Below, piece by piece: positions 2,908-16,218 of a stretch of 64,000 bases of DNA. The notes below the pieces were generated by a model. That model searched no databases. It saw nothing but the letters and a program-made list of their open reading frames with translations, and was not told where the DNA came from. Positions within the stretch are counted from its first letter, which is position 1. Each line of letters starts with the position of its first letter. This DNA is from a virus, in the IMG/VR virus record IMGVR_UViG_641201025_000001, positions 1 to 64,000 of that record; one strand, written 5' to 3'. The position numbers and the translations under genes were made by a program.

Positions 2908-3936
2908 GTGACCGAACAAAAGACCCTGACCACGACGTTTAAGCAGAAAATCGCATCGGGCGAAGTCAAGCGCGCCGATATGATGAAGTGCCGACTCGAA
3001 GACCTTTACGTCGAAGAAGGCTTCAACCTTCGCACGCCGTTCGATCAACTCGAAGGTGAAGCCCTTCAAGAAGTTCTCGACGCCGACGAAGCGCTTTATG
3101 AGTTCATCAAAGCTGGCGGTCAGATTCCGCCGCTCGAAGTTCGCCCGCGCGCGGAAGGTGGCGTGTGGGTCGTCGAGGGCCATCGCCGCCGCCGCGTGCT
3201 GATGCGTTGCGATGCTGAAGGCGTTCCGCTGCGCGACGGCAAGCCGGTTCCCGGCGGCGATCCGCGCGGCGAACTGTGGGTTAAGATCGAATCCTTCACG
3301 GGTGACGACGCTGACCGCAAGTCGCGCATCCTCACGTCGCAAGACAACCTGAAGCTGCACGCGGTCGAAATCGCGAACGGCTATCTCGAACTGTCGAAGT
3401 TCGGGTGGACGAACGAGCGTATCGCGAACCTGCGCAAGAAGACCCCGCAACACGTCGCACAGTACCTCATCGTGGCCGGCGCGGACACCTATGTGAAGTG
3501 GGCGATCCGTAACGACAAAATCGCATTCACGGAAGCGGTAAAGATCGTTCGCAAGCACGGCGACGGCGCGGCACAATTCATCAAGGATAAGCTGTCGGGC
3601 GCGGGGAAGAAGCTGACCGCCGCGACGATCGGCTCGAAGAATCTGCCGAAAAAGATCGTCGACGAGGTTGAAGCCTCTACGATCTTCGTCATCGACAATC
3701 TCACCGCAGAAGCGAGCGAGGCAATCGCGAAGGCCGCACTCAGCCCGGAACAATTCGCCGATGAAATCGTAGAAATCCGTGCCGGCGATCTCGCGGAACT
3801 GCTGAAGGCCGTCAACGCGATCAAGGAAGAGCGCGCGAAACAGGCCGAGAAGCGCGCGGAAGCGGCCGGAATCGACCCGCGCAAGAAAACGCCATCGGGT
3901 CTGACCGACGAAGAAGTCGAAGAGGCACAAAGCTGA
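2908..3936 (+). CDS. ParB/sulfiredoxin-like nuclease-domain protein
   Basis: GTG start after GGAGATAGTGAA. The N-terminal VVEGHRRRR motif is typical of the ParB N-terminal domain; the C-terminal half is charged and helical. Confidence 0.6.
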   Translation: MTEQKTLTTTFKQKIASGEVKRADMMKCRLEDLYVEEGFNLRTPFDQLEGEALQEVLDADEALYEFIKAGGQIPPLEVRPRAEGGVWVVEGHRRRRVLMRCDAEGVPLRDGKPVPGGDPRGELWVKIESFTGDDADRKSRILTSQDNLKLHAVEIANGYLELSKFGWTNERIANLRKKTPQHVAQYLIVAGADTYVKWAIRNDKIAFTEAVKIVRKHGDGAAQFIKDKLSGAGKKLTAATIGSKNLPKKIVDEVEASTIFVIDNLTAEASEAIAKAALSPEQFADEIVEIRAGDLAELLKAVNAIKEERAKQAEKRAEAAGIDPRKKTPSGLTDEEVEEAQS

Positions 3937-5279: not shown

Positions 5280-5359
5280 GATCATTCTCACAAACACTCT
5301 TGCGCAATCATCCAAAGGTGGTTAATATCTTGTTCATAGATCAGATGAACGGAGATAGC

Positions 5360-5575
5360 ATGGTTCGCGTAACGGTGCGCCAGAATTTTGTAGAAAAAGA
5401 CCCCATCGTTTTCTGTCAGCATCCAGACGAACATATTGCCTTGAAATGTGTCGCCGCCGGGTTCGCCGCGCACTGCGCAAAGTCCGGAATGCGCCTTGAC
5501 GTTCACTCGGAGTTTGTCGTCGACATGCTCCGTCAAGATTTCGGATACCACGTCTCGATCGAAACCGACCACTAG
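5360..5575 (+). CDS. hypothetical protein (alternative: antisense ORF 5288-5692 on the minus strand)
   Basis: ATG at 5360 directly after ACGGAGATAGC; 71 aa; local GC dip. A 134-aa minus-strand ORF overlaps it completely. Confidence 0.3.
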   Translation: MVRVTVRQNFVEKDPIVFCQHPDEHIALKCVAAGFAAHCAKSGMRLDVHSEFVVDMLRQDFGYHVSIETDH

Positions 5576-5671
5576 GCCGAAACATACGCGTCCGCAAGGC
5601 AGTAGAGCGGGCGCGGTTGCAGCGTGTGGCGCTGCCTGACGATGGCCGTCAACTTTATCGGAGATAACCCA

Positions 5672-6001
5672 ATGAATCTTTGCCCCGTACAAATCGAGTT
5701 GTTGAAAGAAGTGCGCGCTGCGTTCGATGAGATCGACTGCGCCCGGCGAACCGGATACATTTGCCTCGAATTGAATCGCATCGCGCGCGCTGGTCGTGGC
5801 CGTGAAGAACTCTCACACGAGGCGAAGAGGCTGTTCGACGCGATTCAATACGCAATAAGTCCGAATATGACGATCGAAATGTGGATCGCGCGGCGTTACA
5901 CGAACTGGTATAGGTTCAGCATAAGCGAGCGCCACTATCTCACGCACATGGCCCGTTGCGCATGGCTCGACCGCATGATCGAAACCGGAGTTTGCGCGTG
6001 A
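5672..6001 (+). CDS. paralog family member 1 (YICH / AWLDRMIETG family, unknown function)
   Basis: Start after CGGAGATAACCCA. Shares N-terminal xLxxxQ[IV]ExL…YIC[LH]A and C-terminal ARCAWLDRMIETGVCA motifs with 7678, 9664 and 12868. Confidence 0.55.
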   Translation: MNLCPVQIELLKEVRAAFDEIDCARRTGYICLELNRIARAGRGREELSHEAKRLFDAIQYAISPNMTIEMWIARRYTNWYRFSISERHYLTHMARCAWLDRMIETGVCA

Positions 6002-6196
6002 AACGATATCAATTCGTTTTTAGTATCAAGCCGCGCCCGCAACCGTGGGCCCCCGGAATGGCCGTGATCGGCGCGTTCAGCGGAGCCCCGCTTATCCTGC
6101 CTTGCGAGCCGTTCACCGAAGCGTCTCAAAAGATGGTGCGTGAGGCTGACCTGTGCATCTACAAGGCTATGGCTCATCCTCTGAATTGATTTCAAC

Positions 6197-6233
6197 CAAA
6201 AGTGTTGACGAGCAACGGAAACGAGTTCATACT
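6197..6233 (+). promoter_or_regulatory. sigma70-like promoter box (CCAAAAGTGTTGACG-17-CATACT)
   Basis: Member of a repeated promoter family; gene 6268 lies downstream. Confidence 0.5.
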
Positions 6234-6267
6234 CTGTTCCGTTGCTTAATCATTTCCGGAGATAACC

Positions 6268-6657
6268 ATGTCGAACCGATACATCGTGAAGGGCGTCAAT
6301 GACGAGCGCGATTTTTGTGAATGCTGCGGCAAGAAAGGGCTGAAGCGCGTCGTCTGGATCGAGGACACGGAAACCGGCGAAATCAAGCACTTCGGCACGA
6401 CGTGTGCCGCGCAACCGGTCAAGGGTTTCGGCGTCGATCGCGAAATTCAATACGCGATCCGTCAATTCGACAACCGCGCAAAGGAAATCGGCCGGATGAC
6501 GCTCTTTCATTACAAGAAACTCGGCGGAAAGTACATCGCGCATCCGACGAAAGAATTTTCGTTCGTTCCGGAAGACTCGGACCTTTATGCAAAGGCCCTC
6601 GCGGAAATGACGATCGAGGTTGATAAGTTCTACTCAGGGTTCAAGGCTATCAAATGA
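6268..6657 (+). CDS. hypothetical CxxC protein
   Basis: Promoter box at 6197-6233 and CCGGAGATAACC ATG; 129 aa with CECCGK…C. Confidence 0.5.
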   Translation: MSNRYIVKGVNDERDFCECCGKKGLKRVVWIEDTETGEIKHFGTTCAAQPVKGFGVDREIQYAIRQFDNRAKEIGRMTLFHYKKLGGKYIAHPTKEFSFVPEDSDLYAKALAEMTIEVDKFYSGFKAIK

Positions 6658-7388
6658 CCAAACAAAAACGATCGAACGGGTCGGTCATGCGCACGCGACC
6701 ATGCTGCGTCGAAGGATGCGAGAAGCCGGCCTACATCAACTTCCGATGCCATGAGCATCATCGCCGGTTTTTGCTCGGATTCCAGACAGAGGACGTGCCG
6801 GCCGAAACTCGCGATCTCGTGCGCGAACTGTTCAAGACTCCAAAAACGGTTCGGCAGGTTGCGGACCTGACCGGAATCGATGCCGCGACGGTCGTCTCGG
6901 CCGCTTGGCAATCTGGCGCGACGATCCTGTTCAACCTGCCTGATGGCGCGGCGGTATTCAGCACGGCGCGCGTCGAGGGTATCGCCTCGTATCGCCTCGT
7001 GGCTGAGATCATGCAGCTATCGCCCGGCATGTCGTGCACGGCAATTGCGCGCCTCGCTCAACGATCGAACGCAGCGACAAGGCGTATCGTGCGGGAGTTT
7101 CATGAGAACGGGCTCGCGCACATTTCCGGATGGAACCCGATTCGACACGGACACGAACCGCGATACATGTTTTGGGCGGGCAAGGATGCACCGAAGCCGG
7201 CACCGCTCACGAGCCAGCAAGTAAGCGAGCGATACTATCGGAAGAACCGCACGTCGACCGAGTTCAAGATCAAGCGCGCTAACCGTCGCCGCGCTGAGAA
7301 GCTGACGAAGAACGTGCAGCGCGATCCGATGATCGCAGCGTTTTTCGGGCCTTCATCAAAAAGTGTTGACCATGAAATGATTTCGTGA
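6654..7388 (+). CDS. putative DNA-binding regulator (zinc ribbon plus HTH-like segment)
   Basis: N-terminal CCVEGC…CHEHH ribbon and an internal HTH-like segment (MSCTAIARLAQRSNAATRRIVREF); ATGA overlap with the upstream gene. Confidence 0.45.
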   Translation: MTKQKRSNGSVMRTRPCCVEGCEKPAYINFRCHEHHRRFLLGFQTEDVPAETRDLVRELFKTPKTVRQVADLTGIDAATVVSAAWQSGATILFNLPDGAAVFSTARVEGIASYRLVAEIMQLSPGMSCTAIARLAQRSNAATRRIVREFHENGLAHISGWNPIRHGHEPRYMFWAGKDAPKPAPLTSQQVSERYYRKNRTSTEFKIKRANRRRAEKLTKNVQRDPMIAAFFGPSSKSVDHEMIS

Positions 7389-7394
7389 GACTAT
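7358..7394 (+). promoter_or_regulatory. sigma70-like promoter box (CAAAAAGTGTTGACC-17-GACTAT)
   Basis: Family member; overlaps the 3' end of gene 6654-7388. Confidence 0.45.
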
Positions 7395-7429
7395 TCTTTC
7401 ACTGATTCATCACTACCGGAGATAACGAA

Positions 7430-7663
7430 ATGACGAAGACCGAAATCCAAGCGCTGAAAAACATCGCCGCGCGCCTGAAGGAGCAAAACTGCGGATGCTC
7501 GAATAGCAACCGCAACGCCGAACTCGTCGCCGAGTGCAACAAGCGCGAGATTGAAGCCGTTTCGCGCATCTACCTCGACACGTGGATCATTTCGGCGCTC
7601 GATCTGTTGATCGAAGGCGGAAACCGTAACGCCGAACTCGCGCGTAGCCTTTCGTCGAAGTGA
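7430..7663 (+). CDS. hypothetical protein
   Basis: ATG after CCGGAGATAACGAA; 77 aa. Confidence 0.45.
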   Translation: MTKTEIQALKNIAARLKEQNCGCSNSNRNAELVAECNKREIEAVSRIYLDTWIISALDLLIEGGNRNAELARSLSSK

Positions 7664-7677
7664 TCGGAGATAACGAA

Positions 7678-8049
7678 ATGGTTCTCAACGCAAAGCAAGT
7701 CGAAATTCTGCGCAAGGCGCGCGTCATGATTGGTCTGAAATTCGACCATGAGAATGACGCGCGATGGAAGCGAGTATCGGAGTTCATCTGTCATGCGATC
7801 GACGATGCGTGCCAATGCGAACGGGCATCGGCTACGGAAAACAACGATCTGTTGTCGATCATCCGGCGCGGTCTGCGATCGCGTCATGGCTTTCAGGAAA
7901 CGTTCGTCGGCTGGTACGTCGACGAGGTTCCGTTTGACATCCGGTTTTCTGGCAAGCATATCGAGAACGAGGACGAATTTATCGTGCTTGCTCGCCTGTG
8001 CTGGCTCGATCGCATCATCTACATCAACGAATCGAGGGACTACCAATGA
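7678..8049 (+). CDS. paralog family member 2 (YICH / WLDR family)
   Basis: ATG after CGGAGATAACGAA; contains FICHAI and LCWLDRIIY motifs. Confidence 0.55.
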   Translation: MVLNAKQVEILRKARVMIGLKFDHENDARWKRVSEFICHAIDDACQCERASATENNDLLSIIRRGLRSRHGFQETFVGWYVDEVPFDIRFSGKHIENEDEFIVLARLCWLDRIIYINESRDYQ

Positions 8050-8144
8050 TCATCACCATCGTTTGTTCGACGCTCGCCTTCATCATGGGCGCAATCCTCG
8101 GCGCGACCGGCATCATCTGGTGGGGTCTTCGGGAGGTCATGTGA
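8046..8144 (+). CDS. small hydrophobic peptide (32 aa)
   Basis: Single TM-like helix; start overlaps the previous stop. Confidence 0.25.
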   Translation: MIITIVCSTLAFIMGAILGATGIIWWGLREVM

Positions 8145-8242
8145 TGAATACGTGGCTCGTGGCCGGCGCGTTTCTCGCGTTCTACGTGTGGGTCGTCATG
8201 CCGATCCTTTCATACTTTTTCGGGAAGAGTGATGAGTCTTGA
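8144..8242 (+). CDS. small hydrophobic peptide (32 aa)
   Basis: Single TM-like helix; ATGTGATG overlap with the previous peptide. Confidence 0.25.
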   Translation: MNTWLVAGAFLAFYVWVVMPILSYFFGKSDES

Positions 8243-8513
8243 ATTGAAAGTTGGCCAAGTATGGCGCGCAAAGCGTCCGGCCGCTGCGGGCTCGTTCCTG
8301 TGCCCGATGATCAACGATCGTCAGATCATCTGGATCGATTCATTCGGGTCTGAAATCCAATACGACTCGCCGAGCGTCGCGCCGGGGCGGAAGTATCCCA
8401 AGGTAACGCGCGAGGCGTTCGAGAAGTGGGCGGGCCGCGAGGTAAAATCCGAACTACCGCCGGGTGGCGAGTGGGCGCGGTGGAACGATCAAGATCGGAG
8501 TCAAAATAAATGA
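8229..8513 (+). CDS. hypothetical protein
   Basis: 94-aa ORF. Confidence 0.4.
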   Translation: MMSLELKVGQVWRAKRPAAAGSFLCPMINDRQIIWIDSFGSEIQYDSPSVAPGRKYPKVTREAFEKWAGREVKSELPPGGEWARWNDQDRSQNK

Positions 8514-8686
8514 TCATGTTCACAGAGGCGCAATTGCGCGAGTTCGCAAAGAAGTGTTTCCTCGCCGGGTTCGAGGCGTCCGCGCAAGGCTGGAACGGAG
8601 AATTCGGGATTCGGACCGACTCGGACAGAAAGCACCTATCGGATTTCGCCGACAACGAAGTTCGAGACATCATGGAGAAAAGGTGA
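8510..8686 (+). CDS. hypothetical protein
   Basis: 58 aa; ATGA overlap. Confidence 0.35.
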   Translation: MIMFTEAQLREFAKKCFLAGFEASAQGWNGEFGIRTDSDRKHLSDFADNEVRDIMEKR

Positions 8687-9144
8687 TGAGGCGCGACATT
8701 TCCATCATCACGGAACGGAAGCATCTGAACAACACGGGAACGTCGCGCATGTTTCGCATGTATCAACCCGATCCGATCAATCCGTTCACCCTTCGTCTGA
8801 ATCAAGAACGCGAGGAACTCGGACGCGTTGATGATTTGGTCGAGAACCAAAAATCGTTACTTCGTTCCGTACTTGCCGCATCACGCGAAGCGCGCCGCGA
8901 ACGAGCGCAAAAGAAGCGCGCTGCCGGTATCAAGCGACTCGACCATTGCGCGTTCGGCACGGACCATTGGGAGTTCCGATGGACCGACAAGAAGTATGGC
9001 GTGACCGGAACGTTCAATTGCTTCTCGTCGCGTTCGGACGCAATCAAACAACTTCGCCGCGCCTACAATCATCCGGATTTCGCTGGATTCCGCGATTTGC
9101 CGGTGGAAATTGTTTTCGTTCCCGGTCTTGCGCGCGACGCATAA
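8686..9144 (+). CDS. hypothetical protein
   Basis: 152 aa; GTGATGA overlap with the previous gene. Confidence 0.45.
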   Translation: MRRDISIITERKHLNNTGTSRMFRMYQPDPINPFTLRLNQEREELGRVDDLVENQKSLLRSVLAASREARRERAQKKRAAGIKRLDHCAFGTDHWEFRWTDKKYGVTGTFNCFSSRSDAIKQLRRAYNHPDFAGFRDLPVEIVFVPGLARDA

Positions 9145-9185
9145 TCGGGTTAGGATTATGATTCATCAATAACGGAGATATCAGA

Positions 9186-9380
9186 ATGAGTGTAACAGCG
9201 CGGATTCGCGTCGAGGTCGAGGTGACTGTCGGCACGTGGGGCCAGAAAAACACGGTCGCCGATATGGTCGAGGTCGCCAAGCAGGAAGGCACGCAAAAGC
9301 TGTCTAACATGATCTACAAGGGCGGCGGAAAGATCGTCGGTGAACCGAAAGTGATTCTCGTCGTCGGCACGGAGGACTGA
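9186..9380 (+). CDS. hypothetical protein
   Basis: ATG after ACGGAGATATCAGA; 64 aa. Confidence 0.45.
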   Translation: MSVTARIRVEVEVTVGTWGQKNTVADMVEVAKQEGTQKLSNMIYKGGGKIVGEPKVILVVGTED

Positions 9381-9382
9381 TC

Positions 9383-9667
9383 ATGTCGAGCCTCGACGTT
9401 TTCATGAAAGAATGGTACACGCCGATAGCGCTGCGCAAGATGCGCCGCGAAGGGTCGACGAATTTCCGCATCTACTGTGTCGGCTGGCTGGAAACGGGCG
9501 GTCCGAGCGACACGTGGGACACGCTGGAAATCATCGGCGCGGAGTTCCGCGAGGTCAAGCGCGGCCCGCGTAAAGGTCAGCTTGGGATCATGGTTCCGGG
9601 CACGATCGTCAAGGCGTATGTCGGGGTCAAGGAGAACCCGAATTACGAAGAAAAGGTGAAGTCGTGA
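9383..9667 (+). CDS. hypothetical protein
   Basis: 94 aa, tightly packed in the operon. Confidence 0.45.
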   Translation: MSSLDVFMKEWYTPIALRKMRREGSTNFRIYCVGWLETGGPSDTWDTLEIIGAEFREVKRGPRKGQLGIMVPGTIVKAYVGVKENPNYEEKVKS

Positions 9668-10056
9668 ATCTGACAGACGATCAATTGAAGGCGCTGAAGT
9701 TCGCACGCAACCGCATTCAGTGCGGCGCAAAGTACATCTGTCATGCCGTCGCGGAGTTCTACAAGGCGAATGACGATGCGATAGAACACGAAGAACTGAA
9801 CCACGCGATTCTCGTCTACGGTCTGCGCGACAAATGCACGAGTTTCGCCGGATTCGTTGAGGCCATGCACGACGATATCGTTCCGATCATTCAACAAGCG
9901 CGAATCCGCTGGCTCGACGAAATGATCGAGAAGGGCGATGTCACGCGCGCGGACGATCATGCGCGATGGGCTTACGAGCAATCGCAAGGCCCGCAAGGAT
10001 GGCAGAAGCGATATGACGGCAAGCCGGCGGTGCGGGGGCCGTATGATCCGGCGTAG
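9664..10056 (+). CDS. paralog family member 3 (YICH / WLDR family)
   Basis: Contains YICHAV and IRWLDEMIEKG motifs; GTGA overlap with the upstream gene. Confidence 0.5.
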   Translation: MNLTDDQLKALKFARNRIQCGAKYICHAVAEFYKANDDAIEHEELNHAILVYGLRDKCTSFAGFVEAMHDDIVPIIQQARIRWLDEMIEKGDVTRADDHARWAYEQSQGPQGWQKRYDGKPAVRGPYDPA

Positions 10057-10249
10057 CGTGACCGCGCAGTGCGGCGCTGAGATCGATCGGTTCCGGATGC
10101 GGTATGTCACGGCCGACTCTGCGTCCCGGCGGCGAATCGCTCTGACCTGTCAGTTGATCTGGCATATCGGTTTAGACCGTGAACTCGATGACGACGATGG
10201 CGAAGCGCGTCAAGAGGCACACGTAAGACGTTTATCACCTGTGGAGTAA
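10043..10249 (+). CDS. hypothetical protein
   Basis: 68 aa; overlaps the 3' end of the previous gene. Confidence 0.3.
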   Translation: MIRRSVTAQCGAEIDRFRMRYVTADSASRRRIALTCQLIWHIGLDRELDDDDGEARQEAHVRRLSPVE

Positions 10250-10252
10250 GAC

Positions 10253-10498
10253 ATGGAACTCGAAGTTTGCCCCGGCATGAAAATCACCCCGATCGCGAGC
10301 GAAAACCCGACGCCGGGAAAAGCGAGCGTTCACGAACTGGTCATCGATCATCCGAACAGGACGACCCCGCCGCTCGTTCTCAAAGGAACCGGCGACGCGT
10401 TGCTCAAGATGCTTTCGGCGTCGGAAAACACGGTGCGCGAAATGATCGCGTTCGAGGTCGCGGCGAAGGCGCTGAAGAACTCGCGAGTGACATCGTGA
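10253..10498 (+). CDS. hypothetical protein
   Basis: 81 aa. Confidence 0.4.
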   Translation: MELEVCPGMKITPIASENPTPGKASVHELVIDHPNRTTPPLVLKGTGDALLKMLSASENTVREMIAFEVAAKALKNSRVTS

Positions 10499-10717
10499 AA
10501 GGGCCGCGCATGAGGACACCGCGCGAGGCTGCGTGCGGTGCGGTTCTCGATACGCTGCACGATATCAAAAAGATGCAGGCAAACCTTTTGGGCGACGATC
10601 CTTTCTCGGTCTGAGCGGTCAGGAACTGTCGCCTGAGTTCCGGCAAGAGGTCTTCGTCCGTCTCGATTTTCTGAAGGCTGAAATGACCGCCGCTTACGAG
10701 TGGCTCAGGAGTGGAAA

Positions 10718-10912
10718 ATGACGTTTCAATTTTTGGCGCGCGACGATTTCGGTCGCACTAAGGCGCTCACGAAGGAGCAATTCGAACTCGCGTCGACGAT
10801 GATTGTTGATCTGGTGAATGGTCGGGTAAGCCCGTCCAAGGCGAACAAGAGCATTCTGCGCTTGCTGGAAAACGCGGGCATCCCGGTCAAGTTCGGAGAG
10901 GAAACAACGTGA
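10718..10912 (+). CDS. hypothetical protein
   Basis: ATG with AGGAGTGG SD; 64 aa. Confidence 0.4.
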   Translation: MTFQFLARDDFGRTKALTKEQFELASTMIVDLVNGRVSPSKANKSILRLLENAGIPVKFGEETT

Positions 10913-11082
10913 CAACGTGGACACTGATCCTTGTCATCCTCGGATATAACGCCGTCGCTGTCGACCACATAGACGGGTTCCAGTCGAAAGAATCCTGCAT
11001 GGATGCCTTCAACAATACGTGGTTGGTCGTGAAGAATTCTCGCGAAGACAAGCGAGCGTTAGGCTACTGCACGAAGAAATAA
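10909..11082 (+). CDS. small membrane protein (GTG start)
   Basis: GTG 9 nt after GGAGAGG; 57 aa with an N-terminal TM helix. Confidence 0.3.
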   Translation: MTTWTLILVILGYNAVAVDHIDGFQSKESCMDAFNNTWLVVKNSREDKRALGYCTKK

Positions 11083-11087
11083 TTTTC

Positions 11088-11124
11088 GAAAACCGTTGAC
11101 CGACTCCAAAAAGGGTGAGACTAT
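11088..11124 (+). promoter_or_regulatory. sigma70-like promoter box (AAAACCGTTGACC-17-GACTATAC)
   Basis: Family member upstream of gene 11163. Confidence 0.45.
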
Positions 11125-11162
11125 ACGTTTACACCCTTTTTGTGCTTACCGGAGATAACGAC

Positions 11163-11384
11163 ATGGCAAACCTTCCGAAACTGATCCGCACGAACTTCGA
11201 CGACGGCAACTTCTTCCAAGGCAGCGAGGAAGGCGGTTCGATCCGGATCGGCATGAACGGCTACCGCTGCATTTCGTTGCCTGTCGGAAACAAGTTTTGG
11301 GCCGAAGCATCCGAGGCACTCGATGCGGACGCAATCGAAGCCCTGTTCGATAAGTGCGTCGAAAACGGCCTGATTCCCCTTTAA
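11163..11384 (+). CDS. hypothetical protein
   Basis: Promoter box at 11096 and CCGGAGATAACGAC ATG; 73 aa. Confidence 0.5.
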   Translation: MANLPKLIRTNFDDGNFFQGSEEGGSIRIGMNGYRCISLPVGNKFWAEASEALDADAIEALFDKCVENGLIPL

Positions 11385-11403
11385 TAAAACGGAGATAGCC
11401 GAA

Positions 11404-11616
11404 ATGAAACTCACCAAAGAACAAATCTCGAAGAAGGCACACGCGCGCACGATGCGCCTCGGCGACCGCATCATCAAGCAATGGGGCTCGGAGAAGAAAC
11501 AACACGCCAAGCGTCGCCGCCTCACGCGTCGAATGATGCGCTGCATGGCGGTTCATTTCGAGGCATCGGAACTTCTGTCGGCTCCGGATGCCCTCCGATG
11601 GGCGCGCAAGTTTTAA
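11404..11616 (+). CDS. hypothetical basic protein
   Basis: ACGGAGATAGCCGAA ATG; 70 aa, Lys/Arg-rich. Confidence 0.45.
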   Translation: MKLTKEQISKKAHARTMRLGDRIIKQWGSEKKQHAKRRRLTRRMMRCMAVHFEASELLSAPDALRWARKF

Positions 11617-11618
11617 TC

Positions 11619-11656
11619 CAAAAGTGTTGACATGGTGAAATGGTTTCGTCGATAAT
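11619..11656 (+). promoter_or_regulatory. sigma70-like promoter box (CCAAAAGTGTTGACA-18-GATAAT)
   Basis: Best match to consensus in the family; gene 11688 lies downstream. Confidence 0.55.
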
Positions 11657-11687
11657 CATTTCACCGCAACGAACCGAGATAACTGAA

Positions 11688-12026
11688 ATGACGAAGAAAA
11701 TCAAACCGCGCGAAATCGAAGGTTTCGACAATGCTGCGATGGTCACAGGCGAAGAACTCGCCGCGCTGCTGAAGCGTGCACCGTCCGGCTCGAAGTTCGT
11801 TGTCCACGCAAGCATGGATGCGGCGATCATCGACAATCCGGAGTGCGTCTATACGAAGGCGATTCGGGCCTGCCTCAACGTAGCGCGTGCAGAGGCGATC
11901 CGATTCGCGAAGGGCGCACTCAGCGAGCGGCAGGAAGCGCGCGGCGCTCGGTTTCGTGTCTACACGTCCTTCTACACGCGCACGTATCCGCGCGAAAAGG
12001 AAGTTACGACGTACTGGATCGTTTGA
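11688..12026 (+). CDS. hypothetical protein
   Basis: Promoter box at 11627 and CCGAGATAACTGAA ATG; 112 aa. Confidence 0.5.
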   Translation: MTKKIKPREIEGFDNAAMVTGEELAALLKRAPSGSKFVVHASMDAAIIDNPECVYTKAIRACLNVARAEAIRFAKGALSERQEARGARFRVYTSFYTRTYPREKEVTTYWIV

Positions 12027-12043
12027 CCAACAGGAGATACAGA

Positions 12044-12298
12044 ATGAAAATCGAAGTCGAGCCGCGCGAATGGACGCGCTTTGCTGATCTGAAACCCGGC
12101 GAGATTTTCTCGCATGCGCGGCGCGAGTCGTCGATCAATCAGCACCCGGCGAATTACGTGGTCTATTACTACGTCTCGCTCGGCGATAACGGCGCGATGC
12201 CGCTCGCGGGCCAGTGCATCGAGGCGCGCACCGTCCACCTGCGATCTGATGAAAAGGTCGTGCGCGCCGACAACGTTCGTTTGTCGTTCAAGTCATGA
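12044..12298 (+). CDS. hypothetical protein
   Basis: CAGGAGATACAGA ATG; 84 aa. Confidence 0.45.
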   Translation: MKIEVEPREWTRFADLKPGEIFSHARRESSINQHPANYVVYYYVSLGDNGAMPLAGQCIEARTVHLRSDEKVVRADNVRLSFKS

Positions 12299-12525
12299 TG
12301 AACTCCAAGGAAGTCGCCTACGTCGCCGCGCTGCGGGCTCAACTCGTCTCGCTGCGTGCGCGCCTGAACTGCGCGAACGAGTTCACGCTGAACCGTGATC
12401 TGCACGTCGAGCGCGTCATGCTCGCGCGGCAAATCGATGCCCTCTCGGATGAGGCCGATCGAATCGAGGCGAAGGCCCGAGAACGCGCGGAGAAAATGAA
12501 GGCTGTTCTCGATAAAACGTGTTGA
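12295..12525 (+). CDS. hypothetical coiled-coil protein
   Basis: 76 aa; ATGA overlap. Confidence 0.4.
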   Translation: MMNSKEVAYVAALRAQLVSLRARLNCANEFTLNRDLHVERVMLARQIDALSDEADRIEAKARERAEKMKAVLDKTC

Positions 12526-12551
12526 CCCTTTCCGGTTGATTCTGAGATAAT
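12513..12551 (+). promoter_or_regulatory. sigma70-like promoter box (AAAACGTGTTGACC-17-GAGATAAT)
   Basis: Family member upstream of the small peptide at 12582. Confidence 0.5.
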
Positions 12552-12581
12552 CGATTCGCTCAATCAACCGAGATAACCGAA

Positions 12582-12677
12582 ATGCTTCATGTTCTATTCC
12601 ATGCGCTTCCGTTCGCTATCGGTTTCGCAATGGCGCTTTTTGTTTTCGCTGTGCATCAACAGCTAAAGGTGAAATGA
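12582..12677 (+). CDS. small hydrophobic peptide (31 aa)
   Basis: Promoter box at 12522 and CCGAGATAACCGAA ATG; single TM helix. Confidence 0.3.
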   Translation: MLHVLFHALPFAIGFAMALFVFAVHQQLKVK

Positions 12678-12871
12678 TGAACAATTCACAGAACCGCCGC
12701 GCGGCCGCTCGATTAATGCGGGACACGCGGAAACTCAACAACTATCAGCGGCACGGATCGCGCGCGGTCAAGGTCTTCATCCGCCGGGCTCGGCAGGCAT
12801 GCTGGACGGTCGGCCGGATCGTCGACACGCTCGACGCGGGCGAACGCTATTTCACATGGAGTCGTGCATGA
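12674..12871 (+). CDS. hypothetical basic protein
   Basis: 65 aa; ATGA overlap. Confidence 0.4.
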   Translation: MMNNSQNRRAAARLMRDTRKLNNYQRHGSRAVKVFIRRARQACWTVGRIVDTLDAGERYFTWSRA

Positions 12872-13236
12872 AACTGAACGAAATTCATATCGAAATCCTT
12901 CGCGCGGCGAAGGAACATATCGATCATCGTGTGTATATCTGCCATGCGATCGAGTTCGGACTTCGCGATGTAATCTATCGGAACGGCTGGCACAAGAAGT
13001 CTGAAGAATTGATCGACGCGATTCAGCGATCGCTCAGTGGGTCGACGGTCGCCGGCTTGATCATTCGATCAGGGGTGTCCGGCACGGCCGCGATGCGCGA
13101 TCGGGGCTCGGAAGAGGTGGACTCCGAAACGCTCACTCGGAACGATCGTGAATACGGCGATTGGGTCGAGCGCGTCAGCAACCTCGCGCGTCACGCATGG
13201 GTCGAACGCATGATCGAGACGGGGGTGTGCGCATGA
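12868..13236 (+). CDS. paralog family member 4 (YICH / AWVERMIETGVCA family)
   Basis: Contains YICHAI and RHAWVERMIETGVCA motifs; the C-terminal 13 aa are near-identical to member 1. Confidence 0.55.
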   Translation: MKLNEIHIEILRAAKEHIDHRVYICHAIEFGLRDVIYRNGWHKKSEELIDAIQRSLSGSTVAGLIIRSGVSGTAAMRDRGSEEVDSETLTRNDREYGDWVERVSNLARHAWVERMIETGVCA

Positions 13237-16160: not shown

Positions 16161-16218
16161 CGCACAAAGCCCGAAAAGTGATATACTGATCGGGCTTTGT
16201 TATTTGGAGATAACTGAA

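What the first reader, a model, noticed from the sequence alone, without database searches (positions are those of the whole stretch)
5672..13236. Four-member paralogous family of ~110-130-aa early proteins (YIC[HL]A … AWLDRMIETGVCA)
Four genes scattered through the early operon (5672-6001, 7678-8049, 9664-10056, 12868-13236) share an N-terminal xLxxxQ[IV]E[IL]L[KR]xA…YICHAI block and a C-terminal AR.[AC]WLDRMIE.G block. Members 1 and 4 end with the identical peptide RMIETGVCA, while the middle segments are highly divergent. Each copy sits behind the same conserved RBS motif. Intragenomic paralog expansion of a small early gene with diversified centres is unusual in phages and is the pattern expected for host-takeover or anti-defence proteins facing variable host targets. 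I do not recognise the family.
Basis: seen in the sequence. Interest (0 to 1): 0.7.

Follow-up and report, generated by a model that had tools for sequence, protein, structure and literature searches.

The report
Multi-copy uncharacterised phage helical-bundle family
Burkholderia phage BcepF1 carries four old, diverged copies of a small five-helix protein that matches no characterised family or solved structure, and related phages keep the same family in ordered sets of up to eleven copies, which points to several distinct but still unknown roles during infection.

Summary
The window is Burkholderia phage BcepF1. The four ORFs exist at the stated coordinates and are true homologs. A profile built only from unrelated metagenomic sequences scores them at 49-84 bits (E 4e-28 to 3e-17); 1000 shuffles score at most 8.6 bits. 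Copy 2 (7678-8049) is missing from GenBank, which calls an overlapping wrong-frame "membrane protein" instead.

The claim that every copy shares one RBS motif fails. That motif precedes only copies 1 and 2, and it is generic to genes that follow a gap in this region.

The family equals phrog_8421 (unknown function). It has no Pfam, NCBIfam, PADLOC or PDB match. A confident AlphaFold model (pLDDT 95) is a five-helix bundle with no solved structural relative.

An exhaustive search finds at least 303 cluster representatives. Nearly all those looked up are unnamed phage or metagenome proteins.

Multi-copy is the rule: 11 of 13 phage loci hold 3-11 copies. The copies are old (17-31% identical within a genome), and related phages keep them in the same order (38-62% identical orthologs).

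Best guess (about 0.4): a conserved scaffold carrying copy-specific surfaces that bind different host or defence targets. Function is inferred, not shown.

The parts
5672..6001 (+). Family copy m1 (BcepF1.014, 109 aa, pI 8.3). It is the copy closest to the family consensus. Orthologs are Maja_100 and Karil-Mokiny-1 CDS0112.
   Evidence: phrog_8421, E 4e-31; 84 bits against the external-only profile; AlphaFold2 pLDDT 95, five helices; orthologs at about 44% identity.
7678..8049 (+). Family copy m2 (123 aa, pI 5.8). It is not annotated in NC_009015/EF153632, which instead call BcepF1.019 'membrane protein' (7793-8242) in another frame. The ortholog is Maja_096.
   Evidence: annotation; 62 bits against the external profile; Maja_096, 44% identity, E 3e-30; codon-usage score +0.45 bits per codon in the m2 frame against -0.25 in the BcepF1.019 frame; GGAG Shine-Dalgarno, ATGA overlap with the next ORF.
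9664..10056 (+). Family copy m3 (BcepF1.025, 130 aa, GTG start overlapping the stop of BcepF1.024). The family domain is residues 1-95. A roughly 35-aa C-terminal tail is conserved in its orthologs Maja_090 and Karil-Mokiny-1 CDS0101.
   Evidence: 49 bits; profile match covers residues 1-95; orthologs at 52% and 42%, tail motif A.W....S.GP.GW.K.
12868..13236 (+). Family copy m4 (BcepF1.038, 122 aa, ATGA overlap with BcepF1.037). It has a roughly 25-aa insertion between helices 4 and 5. The ortholog is Karil-Mokiny-1 CDS0093. Maja has none at the matching position.
   Evidence: 62 bits; insertion in the alignment; no positional ortholog in Maja; 36% ortholog in Karil-Mokiny-1.

Best explanation
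The four genes encode members of a phage-restricted family (phrog_8421) of small soluble proteins of about 110 aa.

**Shown or predicted**
- The predicted fold is a compact five-helix bundle.
- The conserved N-terminal helix, the [YF]-I-C turn that opens helix 2, and the almost fully conserved C-terminal helix (A-R-L-A-W-L-D-R-M-I-E) are the family-wide conserved blocks. The two chain ends are predicted to lie next to each other.
- The segments between these blocks differ from copy to copy, namely the helix 2-3 region and the insertion-prone helix 4-5 connection.

**Inferred**
- The conserved blocks form the scaffold, and the variable segments form copy-specific surfaces.
- Each copy acts without catalysis, by binding a different host or defence macromolecule. 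The phage therefore keeps a fixed panel of old, non-redundant copies rather than one gene.
- The genes are expressed from the block of small accessory genes at the left genome end, before replication genes act.
For: **Shown**
- Homology of all four copies.
- A confident five-helix model, pLDDT 95 and pTM 0.86, with residue 2 bridging to residue 107.
- The conservation pattern: core positions plus invariant C31, R95 and W98, with variable segments at 20-28, 35-53 and 73-92.
- No Pfam domain in any copy; the model is all-helical and the N-terminus (MKLNEEQIE consensus) is polar.
- At least 303 cluster representatives, nearly all single-domain proteins of 100-135 aa. All 10 looked up are metagenomic.
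- The one pattern scan of 185,579 species genomes returned a single marginal hit.
- 3-11 copies in 11 of 13 phage loci.
- Paralogs are 17-31% identical (medians), while positional orthologs are 38-62% identical and collinear between phages.
- The repertoire turns over while the copy number stays at four in BcepF1, Maja and Karil-Mokiny-1.
- The identical m1/m4 tail is kept by selection on the protein.

**Inferred**
- Binding rather than catalysis, from small size, lack of any known catalytic fold, and long-term retention of many distinct copies.
- Timing, from position in the unidirectional block of small genes upstream of the replication module.
Against: - No direct evidence identifies any target or any anti-defence activity.
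- An absolutely invariant Cys, Arg and Trp (136/136 sequences; 60/60, 59/59 and 59/59) is more than packing usually demands. It could mark a catalytic or ligand-binding site.
- The family's orthologs do not evolve conspicuously faster than neighbouring genes, so there is no clear arms-race signature.
- The C-terminal helix is conserved on nearly all faces. That would also fit a conserved common partner or self-association.
- Early expression is not demonstrated. The promoter scan was not enriched.
Confidence: 0.4

Rival explanations
1. The family is a small enzyme or a ligand-binding or sequestering protein. Its site would be formed by the invariant Cys31, Arg95 and Trp98 with Asp100, Arg15 and Glu104. 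Examples would be a thiol-dependent activity or a sponge for a nucleotide-type signal. The copies would differ in substrate or ligand.
For: - C31, R95 and W98 are invariant in 136/136 profile hits. In the 60 independently collected locus copies they are 60/60, 59/59 and 59/59.
- D100 is 93%, R15 86% and E104 71% conserved.
- An Arg plus an aromatic residue plus an acidic residue is a typical nucleotide-contacting set (general knowledge).
Against: - There is no similarity to any known enzyme or sponge, by sequence or by fold.
- Part of the invariance is circular, because sequences were collected with a profile that rewards these residues.
- The residues could equally form a buried salt-bridge and packing network.
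- Sets of 10-11 distinct retained copies are not typical of the known phage sponges (own knowledge).
- I could not inspect 3D clustering of these residues, because no coordinates were available.
Confidence: 0.2
2. The copies are subunits that assemble with each other into homo- or hetero-oligomers. The conserved terminal helices would form the common interface. The ordered array would encode a multi-subunit structural or regulatory complex rather than independent binders.
For: - Natural tandem fusions of two family domains exist: P0008, P0073, P0138 and P0145.
- AlphaFold2 of P0008 gives two intact five-helix units with pTM 0.72. I judge that higher than expected for two freely oriented halves.
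- The C-terminal helix is conserved on nearly all faces.
- Arrays keep their order and composition between related phages.
Against: - Fusions are rare, 4 of the 150 listed hits.
- They are easy accidents in head-to-tail arrays. In P0008 the second unit begins VKL, which looks like a read-through GTG start.
- No PAE or interface data were available, and the second domain had an alignment depth of only 2.
- Copy number ranges from 1 to 11, and the BcepF1-like phages swap members. That argues against a fixed-stoichiometry complex.
Confidence: 0.15
3. The proteins are small DNA- or RNA-polymerase-binding regulators that reprogramme transcription, with each copy controlling a different gene set.
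For: - They lie among small genes next to a ParB-like gene and a putative DNA-binding protein.
Against: - The pI is unremarkable (family median 6.0; m2-m4 5.7-6.1).
- No helix-turn-helix or other DNA-binding Pfam model matches.
Confidence: 0.08
4. The similarity is chance or composition, or the proteins belong to an already well-characterised family. These were the first reader's own refutation criteria.
For: Direct pairwise BLAST between m2 or m3 and the other copies is only marginal (E 0.002-0.03 in a four-sequence database).
Against: - The external-only profile gives 49-84 bits, against at most 8.6 bits for shuffles.
- All four hit phrog_8421.
- Each copy has a positional ortholog in Maja or Karil-Mokiny-1.
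- Nothing matches in Pfam, NCBIfam, PADLOC, or the PDB by sequence or structure.
- No paper was found that describes the family.
Confidence: 0.01

Closest known systems
phrog_8421 (PHROGs v4, 'unknown function')
   Same: All four BcepF1 proteins match it (E 4e-31, 2e-3, 1e-5, 4e-5), as do 109 of 136 collected family members, over the full length. It is the same family.
   Different: The PHROG is only an unnamed cluster. It records no function, no structure, and nothing about the multi-copy, collinear-array organisation found here.
Lineage-specific expansions of small proteins in phage genomes, for example the roughly 35-copy zinc-ribbon expansion in Bacillus phage G (PMC7824862)
   Same: One small domain is present many times in a single phage genome, and function is inferred only from context.
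   Different: The domain is unrelated. Here the expansion is not confined to one lineage: ordered sets recur in several phage groups whose neighbouring genes are otherwise dissimilar, and the copies are old rather than recent.
Tandem arrays of paralogous immunity proteins in bacterial polymorphic-toxin loci (own knowledge: Zhang, Iyer, Aravind and colleagues, 2012)
   Same: Small, often all-helical proteins of about 100-130 aa sit in head-to-tail arrays of diverged paralogs, each thought to neutralise a different partner.
   Different: No Pfam immunity-family model matches. No toxin gene is adjacent. The family lies in phage contigs and is essentially absent from bacterial genomes.
Small phage anti-defence proteins (anti-CRISPRs, the DNA mimics Ocr/ArdA, the signal sponges Acb2/Tad)
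T4 internal proteins IPI/IPII/IPIII (own knowledge)
   Same: Several paralogous small proteins share a conserved N-terminus and have diverged bodies.
   Different: In T4 the shared N-terminus is a cleaved capsid-targeting peptide. Here the N-terminal block is helix 1 of the fold and is predicted to sit beside the C-terminus (pLDDT 97). The genes lie in the accessory block, not with structural genes.

Membership tests
phrog_8421 | Significant full-length match to the PHROG profile HMM | tested here: met
   m1 E 3.9e-31, m3 1.2e-5, m4 4.3e-5, m2 2e-3, each covering about positions 2-107 of the 112-position profile; 109 of 136 family members match.
Any Pfam-A, NCBIfam or PADLOC family | Match to a curated model at or near its cut-off | tested here: not met
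   - 0 Pfam families at E<=1 for all four copies.
- only three isolated chance hits among 136 members.
- nothing meaningful in NCBIfam; nothing in PADLOC.
[not shown]
   - best profile E-value 0.18.
- best Foldseek E 2.3, TM below 0.4.
- The AFDB library was unavailable.
DNA-mimic anti-restriction proteins (Ocr/ArdA type) | Strongly acidic protein with surface charge that mimics DNA | tested here: not met
   pI 8.3, 5.8, 5.7 and 6.1 for m1-m4; family median 6.0, with 21% of members above pI 8.
Polymorphic-toxin immunity proteins | Match to an Imm/SUKH-type family model | tested here: not met
   No Pfam match of any kind.
Polymorphic-toxin immunity proteins | Located next to a toxin gene in a cellular genome | tested here: not met
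   The neighbours are small phage ORFs. The scan of 185,579 species genomes gave one marginal hit.
Known anti-defence proteins (function) | Demonstrated inhibition of a defence system | not testable with these tools
   This needs infection or plating assays. No homolog with such data was found in papers.
Early (pre-replication) phage genes | Transcription early in infection from host-type promoters | tested here: inconclusive
   The position in the unidirectional block at 48-20740, upstream of the divergently transcribed primase, is consistent. Sigma-70-like matches were 10, against 8.5 +/- 2.5 expected from shuffles. No transcriptome is available.

The most novel reading that the evidence does not exclude
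The family is a previously unrecognised fold that phages deploy as an ordered toolkit. Up to eleven old, individually conserved copies would share an invariant Cys-Arg-Trp-centred core, with each copy neutralising a different host defence or host factor, possibly as mixed oligomers. That would make it a new class of counter-defence or host-takeover module, occupying up to about 8% of a roughly 60-kb phage genome.
Probability: 0.2. Interest if true: 0.8.

Novelty: new variant of a known kind. Interest (0 to 1): 0.55.

Why it matters
Most phage accessory genes are unexplained single genes. This family is different in three ways:

- It has a confident predicted fold with no solved relative.
- It has three absolutely invariant residues.
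- It is organised in an unusual way: sets of 3-11 old copies kept in the same order across phages whose neighbouring genes are otherwise unrelated. That means each copy is separately needed.

The array occupies about 4.8 kb of a 57-kb contig (L011) and about 5.1 kb of a 61-kb contig (L017). That is a large investment for a small genome, so the selective value should be high and measurable.

BcepF1, Maja and Karil-Mokiny-1 are cultured Burkholderia phages with only four copies each. They offer a workable system for deletions, host-range tests and pull-downs.

If the copies prove to be inhibitors of distinct host defences or host factors, the family would add a new scaffold to the known counter-defence proteins. 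It would also give a handle on strain specificity in Burkholderia phage therapy. If they prove to be enzymes or ligand binders, the invariant Cys-Arg-Trp site would define a new activity.

The work also corrects the reference annotation of BcepF1.

Tried and rejected
1. **Fifth copy in the window.** None was found with 4-, 7- and 136-sequence profiles on all six-frame ORFs.
2. **Family-specific RBS motif.** Rejected. GGAGATA[AGT]C precedes nine genes in this block that follow a gap, and m3 and m4 lack it.
3. **Recent gene conversion as the cause of the identical m1/m4 tail.** Rejected. Third-codon-position identity is 10/19, against 15/19 and 17/19 at positions 1 and 2.
4. **ParB link.** The fusion protein P0094 has a 150-aa N-terminal part with a DGHHR motif, and a ParB-like gene lies upstream of the family in BcepF1, Maja and Karil-Mokiny-1. 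However, that N-terminal part matches no Pfam, PHROG or PDB entry and does not match BcepF1.009. The lead is dropped as unverified.
5. **tblastn surveys of annotated phages.** The consensus query was masked as low complexity. Real members found only BcepF1-like Burkholderia phages.
6. **Pattern-based collection scans.** These were insensitive. The alignment of all 136 members was too diverse to give a pattern. Tighter alignments returned 1-3 loci per collection.
7. **The second and third word-indexed protein searches.** They added little.
8. **AFDB fold search.** The library was unavailable.
9. **Structured RNA or terminator upstream of m1.** Folding of the intergenic stretch gave z = -0.7, so no evidence.
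10. **Promoter and terminator scan.** Not enriched over shuffles.
11. **Arms-race signature.** Family orthologs are on the faster side but are not outliers.
12. **Literature.** No paper describes the family. The Aravind-lab mention of BcepF1 concerns gene 124.


Full report
**Identity of the window.** The 64-kb window is identical to positions 1-64000 of Burkholderia ambifaria phage BcepF1 (NC_009015/EF153632, 72,415 bp, genus Bcepfunavirus), so window and record coordinates coincide. The finding lies in a block of about 60 small same-strand genes (48-20740). This block sits upstream of a divergently transcribed primase gene.

**Check of the observation.**
- The four ORFs translate cleanly: 5672-6001 (109 aa), 7678-8049 (123 aa), 9664-10056 (130 aa, GTG start) and 12868-13236 (122 aa).
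- Their alignment shows the described N-terminal and C-terminal blocks. Copies 1 and 4 both end in RMIETGVCA.
- Direct pairwise BLAST is convincing only for m1-m4 (E 5e-9). The other pairs are marginal, so I tested homology independently.
- A profile built from 130 family members that excludes every BcepF1 and Maja sequence scores m1, m4, m2 and m3 at 84, 62, 62 and 49 bits (E 4e-28 to 3e-17). The best of 1000 shuffled copies reaches 8.6 bits. The four are the only hits among all six-frame ORFs of the window.
- All four also hit one PHROG, phrog_8421.
- No fifth copy exists in the window.

**Corrections to the finding.**
- The motif ATCGGAGATAAC precedes only m1 and m2. Its core GGAGATA[AGT]C also precedes seven unrelated genes that follow an intergenic gap (013, 016, 018, 023, 031, 032, 046), so it is a generic leader and Shine-Dalgarno signature of this region.
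- m3 and m4 instead overlap the upstream stop codon, as GTGA and ATGA.
- The centre of the protein is not uniformly divergent. L54, I58, L62, T67 and W/Y71 are conserved family-wide. Variability is concentrated at residues 20-28, 35-53 and 73-92.

**Copy 2 is missing from the public annotation.** The record has no gene at 7678-8049. It calls BcepF1.019 'membrane protein' at 7793-8242 in another frame. Four lines of evidence favour m2:
- family membership;
- a 44%-identical ortholog, Maja_096, at the matching position in phage Maja;
- codon usage of +0.45 bits per codon in the m2 frame, against -0.25 in the BcepF1.019 frame over the same bases;
- a GGAG Shine-Dalgarno upstream and an ATGA overlap with the next ORF.

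The rest of 'BcepF1.019' is better read as two 32-aa hydrophobic (transmembrane-like) ORFs at 8046-8144 and 8144-8242. These match Maja_095 and Maja_094 by position, and Maja_095 at 50% identity.

**What the family is.**
- No Pfam, NCBIfam or PADLOC model matches the four proteins. Only three isolated chance Pfam hits occur among 136 collected relatives.
- No PDB chain matches a family profile (best E 0.18).
- An exhaustive profile search of 1.84 billion cluster representatives finds 303 proteins at E<=1e-3 and 47 at E<=1e-10. Nearly all are single-domain proteins of 100-135 aa matched end to end. A few are tandem two-domain fusions.
- The 10 representatives I looked up are all metagenomic. 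The only functional name among them is a spurious one.
- Cultured carriers are Burkholderia phages: BcepF1, Maja, Karil-Mokiny-1, BCSR52 and vB_BglM_WTB by tblastn. By fold, the jumbo phage BcepSauron has at least 8 matching proteins, and BcepSaruman has a weaker match (Foldseek E 0.7).
- A pattern scan of one genome from each of 185,579 bacterial and archaeal species gave a single marginal hit (E 0.005 inside a 610-aa ORF). That scan is insensitive, but the family does not appear to be a common cellular or prophage gene.
- I found no paper that describes it.

**Structure.**
- AlphaFold2 of m1 with the 136-sequence alignment gives mean pLDDT 95 and pTM 0.86. The helices are at 5-19, 30-40, 44-62, 68-75 and 84-105. 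Residue 2 forms a bridge with residue 107, so the two conserved ends are predicted to lie side by side. This explains why the N- and C-terminal blocks are conserved together.
- C31, R95 and W98 are invariant in 136/136 sequences. In 60 independently collected locus copies they are 60/60, 59/59 and 59/59.
- I30, D100, R15 and E104 are 91%, 93%, 86% and 71% conserved. The segment A94-E104 is conserved on almost every face of the helix.

**Multi-copy organisation is the rule.** I scanned six-frame ORFs of every locus I could fetch with the family profile.

| Locus | Copies | Notes |
|---|---|---|
| BcepF1 (window) | 4 | scattered over 7.6 kb |
| Maja (L002) | 4 | |
| Karil-Mokiny-1 (L018) | 4 | |
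| L011 | 11 | within 4.8 kb of a 57-kb contig |
| L003 | 10 | |
| L017 | 10 | within 5.1 kb of a 61-kb contig |
| L009 | 5 | |
| L015 | 4 | |
| L016 | 4 | on a 2.1-kb contig |
| L008 | 3 | |
| L013 | 3 | |
| L006 | 1 | |
| L010 | 1 | |

- The copies are old. Within-locus identity has medians of 17-31% and a maximum of 42%. Individual copies have closer relatives in other phages, at up to 62%.
- The arrays are collinear. L011 against L017 gives a diagonal of 58, 56, 50, 62, 38, 52, 57 and 46% identity, over a 15-30% background. L017 against L016 gives 57, 50, 50 and 51%. BcepF1 against Maja gives 42, 42 and 53%.
- Among the BcepF1-like phages the count stays at four but membership changes. The m1 and m3 lineages are in all three. 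The m2 lineage is in BcepF1 and Maja. The m4 lineage is in BcepF1 and Karil-Mokiny-1. Maja_101 and Karil CDS0092 are extra tandem copies.
- The metagenomic array loci share almost no other gene with BcepF1's accessory block.

**Evolutionary tempo.** BcepF1-Maja orthologs of the family are 44-52% identical. The 34 genes of this block with a Maja match range from 28% to 88%, with a median of about 56%. The family is on the faster side but is not an outlier. The identical m1/m4 tail shows 10/19 identity at third codon positions, against 15/19 and 17/19 at positions 1 and 2. It is therefore maintained by selection on the protein and not by gene conversion.

**How it most likely works.**
- *Shown:* a phage-restricted family whose members are retained separately as distinct copies, and which has an invariant residue trio.
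- *Predicted:* a small, soluble, all-helical five-helix fold.
- *Inferred:* the conserved termini and core form a scaffold, and the variable helix 2-3 and helix 4-5 segments form copy-specific surfaces. Each copy would then bind a different host or defence macromolecule, expressed from the accessory block at the genome end. Long-term retention of many distinct copies, small size, absence of any catalytic fold and restriction to phages fit this best. I give it about 0.4.
- *Main rival (0.2):* the Cys-Arg-Trp(-Asp) set marks a catalytic or ligand-binding site.
- *Second rival (0.15):* the copies assemble with each other. Natural tandem fusions exist. One of them, P0008, is predicted as two intact units with pTM 0.72. 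However, the second unit had almost no alignment depth, no interface data were available, and such fusions are easy accidents in head-to-tail arrays.
- *Weakly supported (0.08):* a role as a transcription regulator.
- *Excluded:* chance similarity, or membership of a characterised family.

**Comparison with what is known.** By membership the proteins belong to phrog_8421 and to nothing else that I could test. By analogy they resemble other small-protein expansions in phages, such as the zinc-ribbon expansion in Bacillus phage G (PMC7824862). They also resemble tandem arrays of immunity proteins in bacterial toxin loci (own knowledge). They differ from both in fold, in lacking any toxin neighbour, and in being ordered sets conserved across phage groups. 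They do not resemble known anti-defence proteins in structure or charge.

**Verdict.**
It extends well beyond the window and includes an unannotated gene.
- Novelty: an uncharacterised family with an orphan fold, showing a known genomic theme (expanded accessory gene families) in an unusually conserved, ordered form.
- Interest: 0.55.

Noticed in passing
window 7793-8242 (BcepF1.019) against 7678-8049, 8046-8144 and 8144-8242: The RefSeq/GenBank gene BcepF1.019 'membrane protein' appears to be a mis-call. The region is better explained by family copy m2 plus two 32-aa hydrophobic (transmembrane-like) ORFs (MIITIVCSTLAFIMGAILGATGIIWWGLREVM and MNTWLVAGAFLAFYVWVVMPILSYFFGKSDES), joined by ATGA and TGATG overlaps. 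These match Maja_096, Maja_095 and Maja_094 by position.
   Followed up: yes
window 5348-5359, 5657-5668, 6255-6266, 7415-7426, 7663-7674, 9171-9182, 11148-11159, 11388-11399, 16203-16214: A conserved leader, GGAGATA[AGT]C followed by 0-5 nt and then ATG, precedes nine + strand genes that follow an intergenic gap. There are 19 matches with up to 2 mismatches to the 12-mer, against 5.3 expected. Four of these upstream regions (016, 018, 031, 046) also carry an AAA..TTGAC box about 55-65 nt upstream, which may be a repeated promoter.
   Followed up: partly
window 9949-10056 (C-terminal tail of m3); L002 28496-28600; L018 about 6918-7020: The m3 lineage carries a roughly 35-aa C-terminal extension outside the family domain. 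Its motif A.W....S.GP.GW.K is conserved in Maja_090 and Karil-Mokiny-1 CDS0101, and it continues as YDG....GPYD in BcepF1 and Maja. It may be a short linear interaction motif. The annotated BcepF1.026 (10013-10249) overlaps this tail by 44 nt, has weak coding statistics (+0.02 bits per codon) and has no Maja match.
   Followed up: partly
L003 320-3271, L004 1100-4051 and L009 1244-4313: In three metagenomic phage contigs the family array lies directly downstream of a conserved trio of genes: an AAA ATPase (433-471 aa), a radical SAM protein (about 345 aa) and a YqeY-like protein. I did not examine whether this is functionally linked to the array.
   Followed up: no
L009 5923-6732 (P0094): A 269-aa protein fuses an unidentified 150-aa N-terminal part, which contains a ParB-like 'DGHHR' motif, to a family domain. 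ParB-like genes lie a few genes upstream of the family in BcepF1 (2908-3936), Maja and Karil-Mokiny-1. No sequence test confirmed a ParB relationship.
   Followed up: partly
window 5567-5651 (intergenic, upstream of m1): This short stretch matches other Burkholderia phages at the DNA level: 83.5% over 85 nt in Bups phi1, and 97% over 37 nt inside BcepB1A gene 71. RNA folding of the region is not unusual (z = -0.7). The origin of the match is unexplained.
   Followed up: partly
window 9383-9667 (BcepF1.024); L011 11729-11980; L017 17952-18203: BcepF1.024, the gene immediately upstream of m3, has 54%-identical homologs in two otherwise dissimilar array-bearing metagenomic phages, several kb from their arrays. 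BcepF1.016 has a 57%-identical homolog in L010.
   Followed up: no
BFVD hits to Burkholderia phage BcepSauron: Two structural matches to the family fold in BcepSauron are annotated 'DNA helicase' (140 aa) and 'Histidine kinase' (104 aa). Given their size and fold, these names are probably annotation errors.
   Followed up: no
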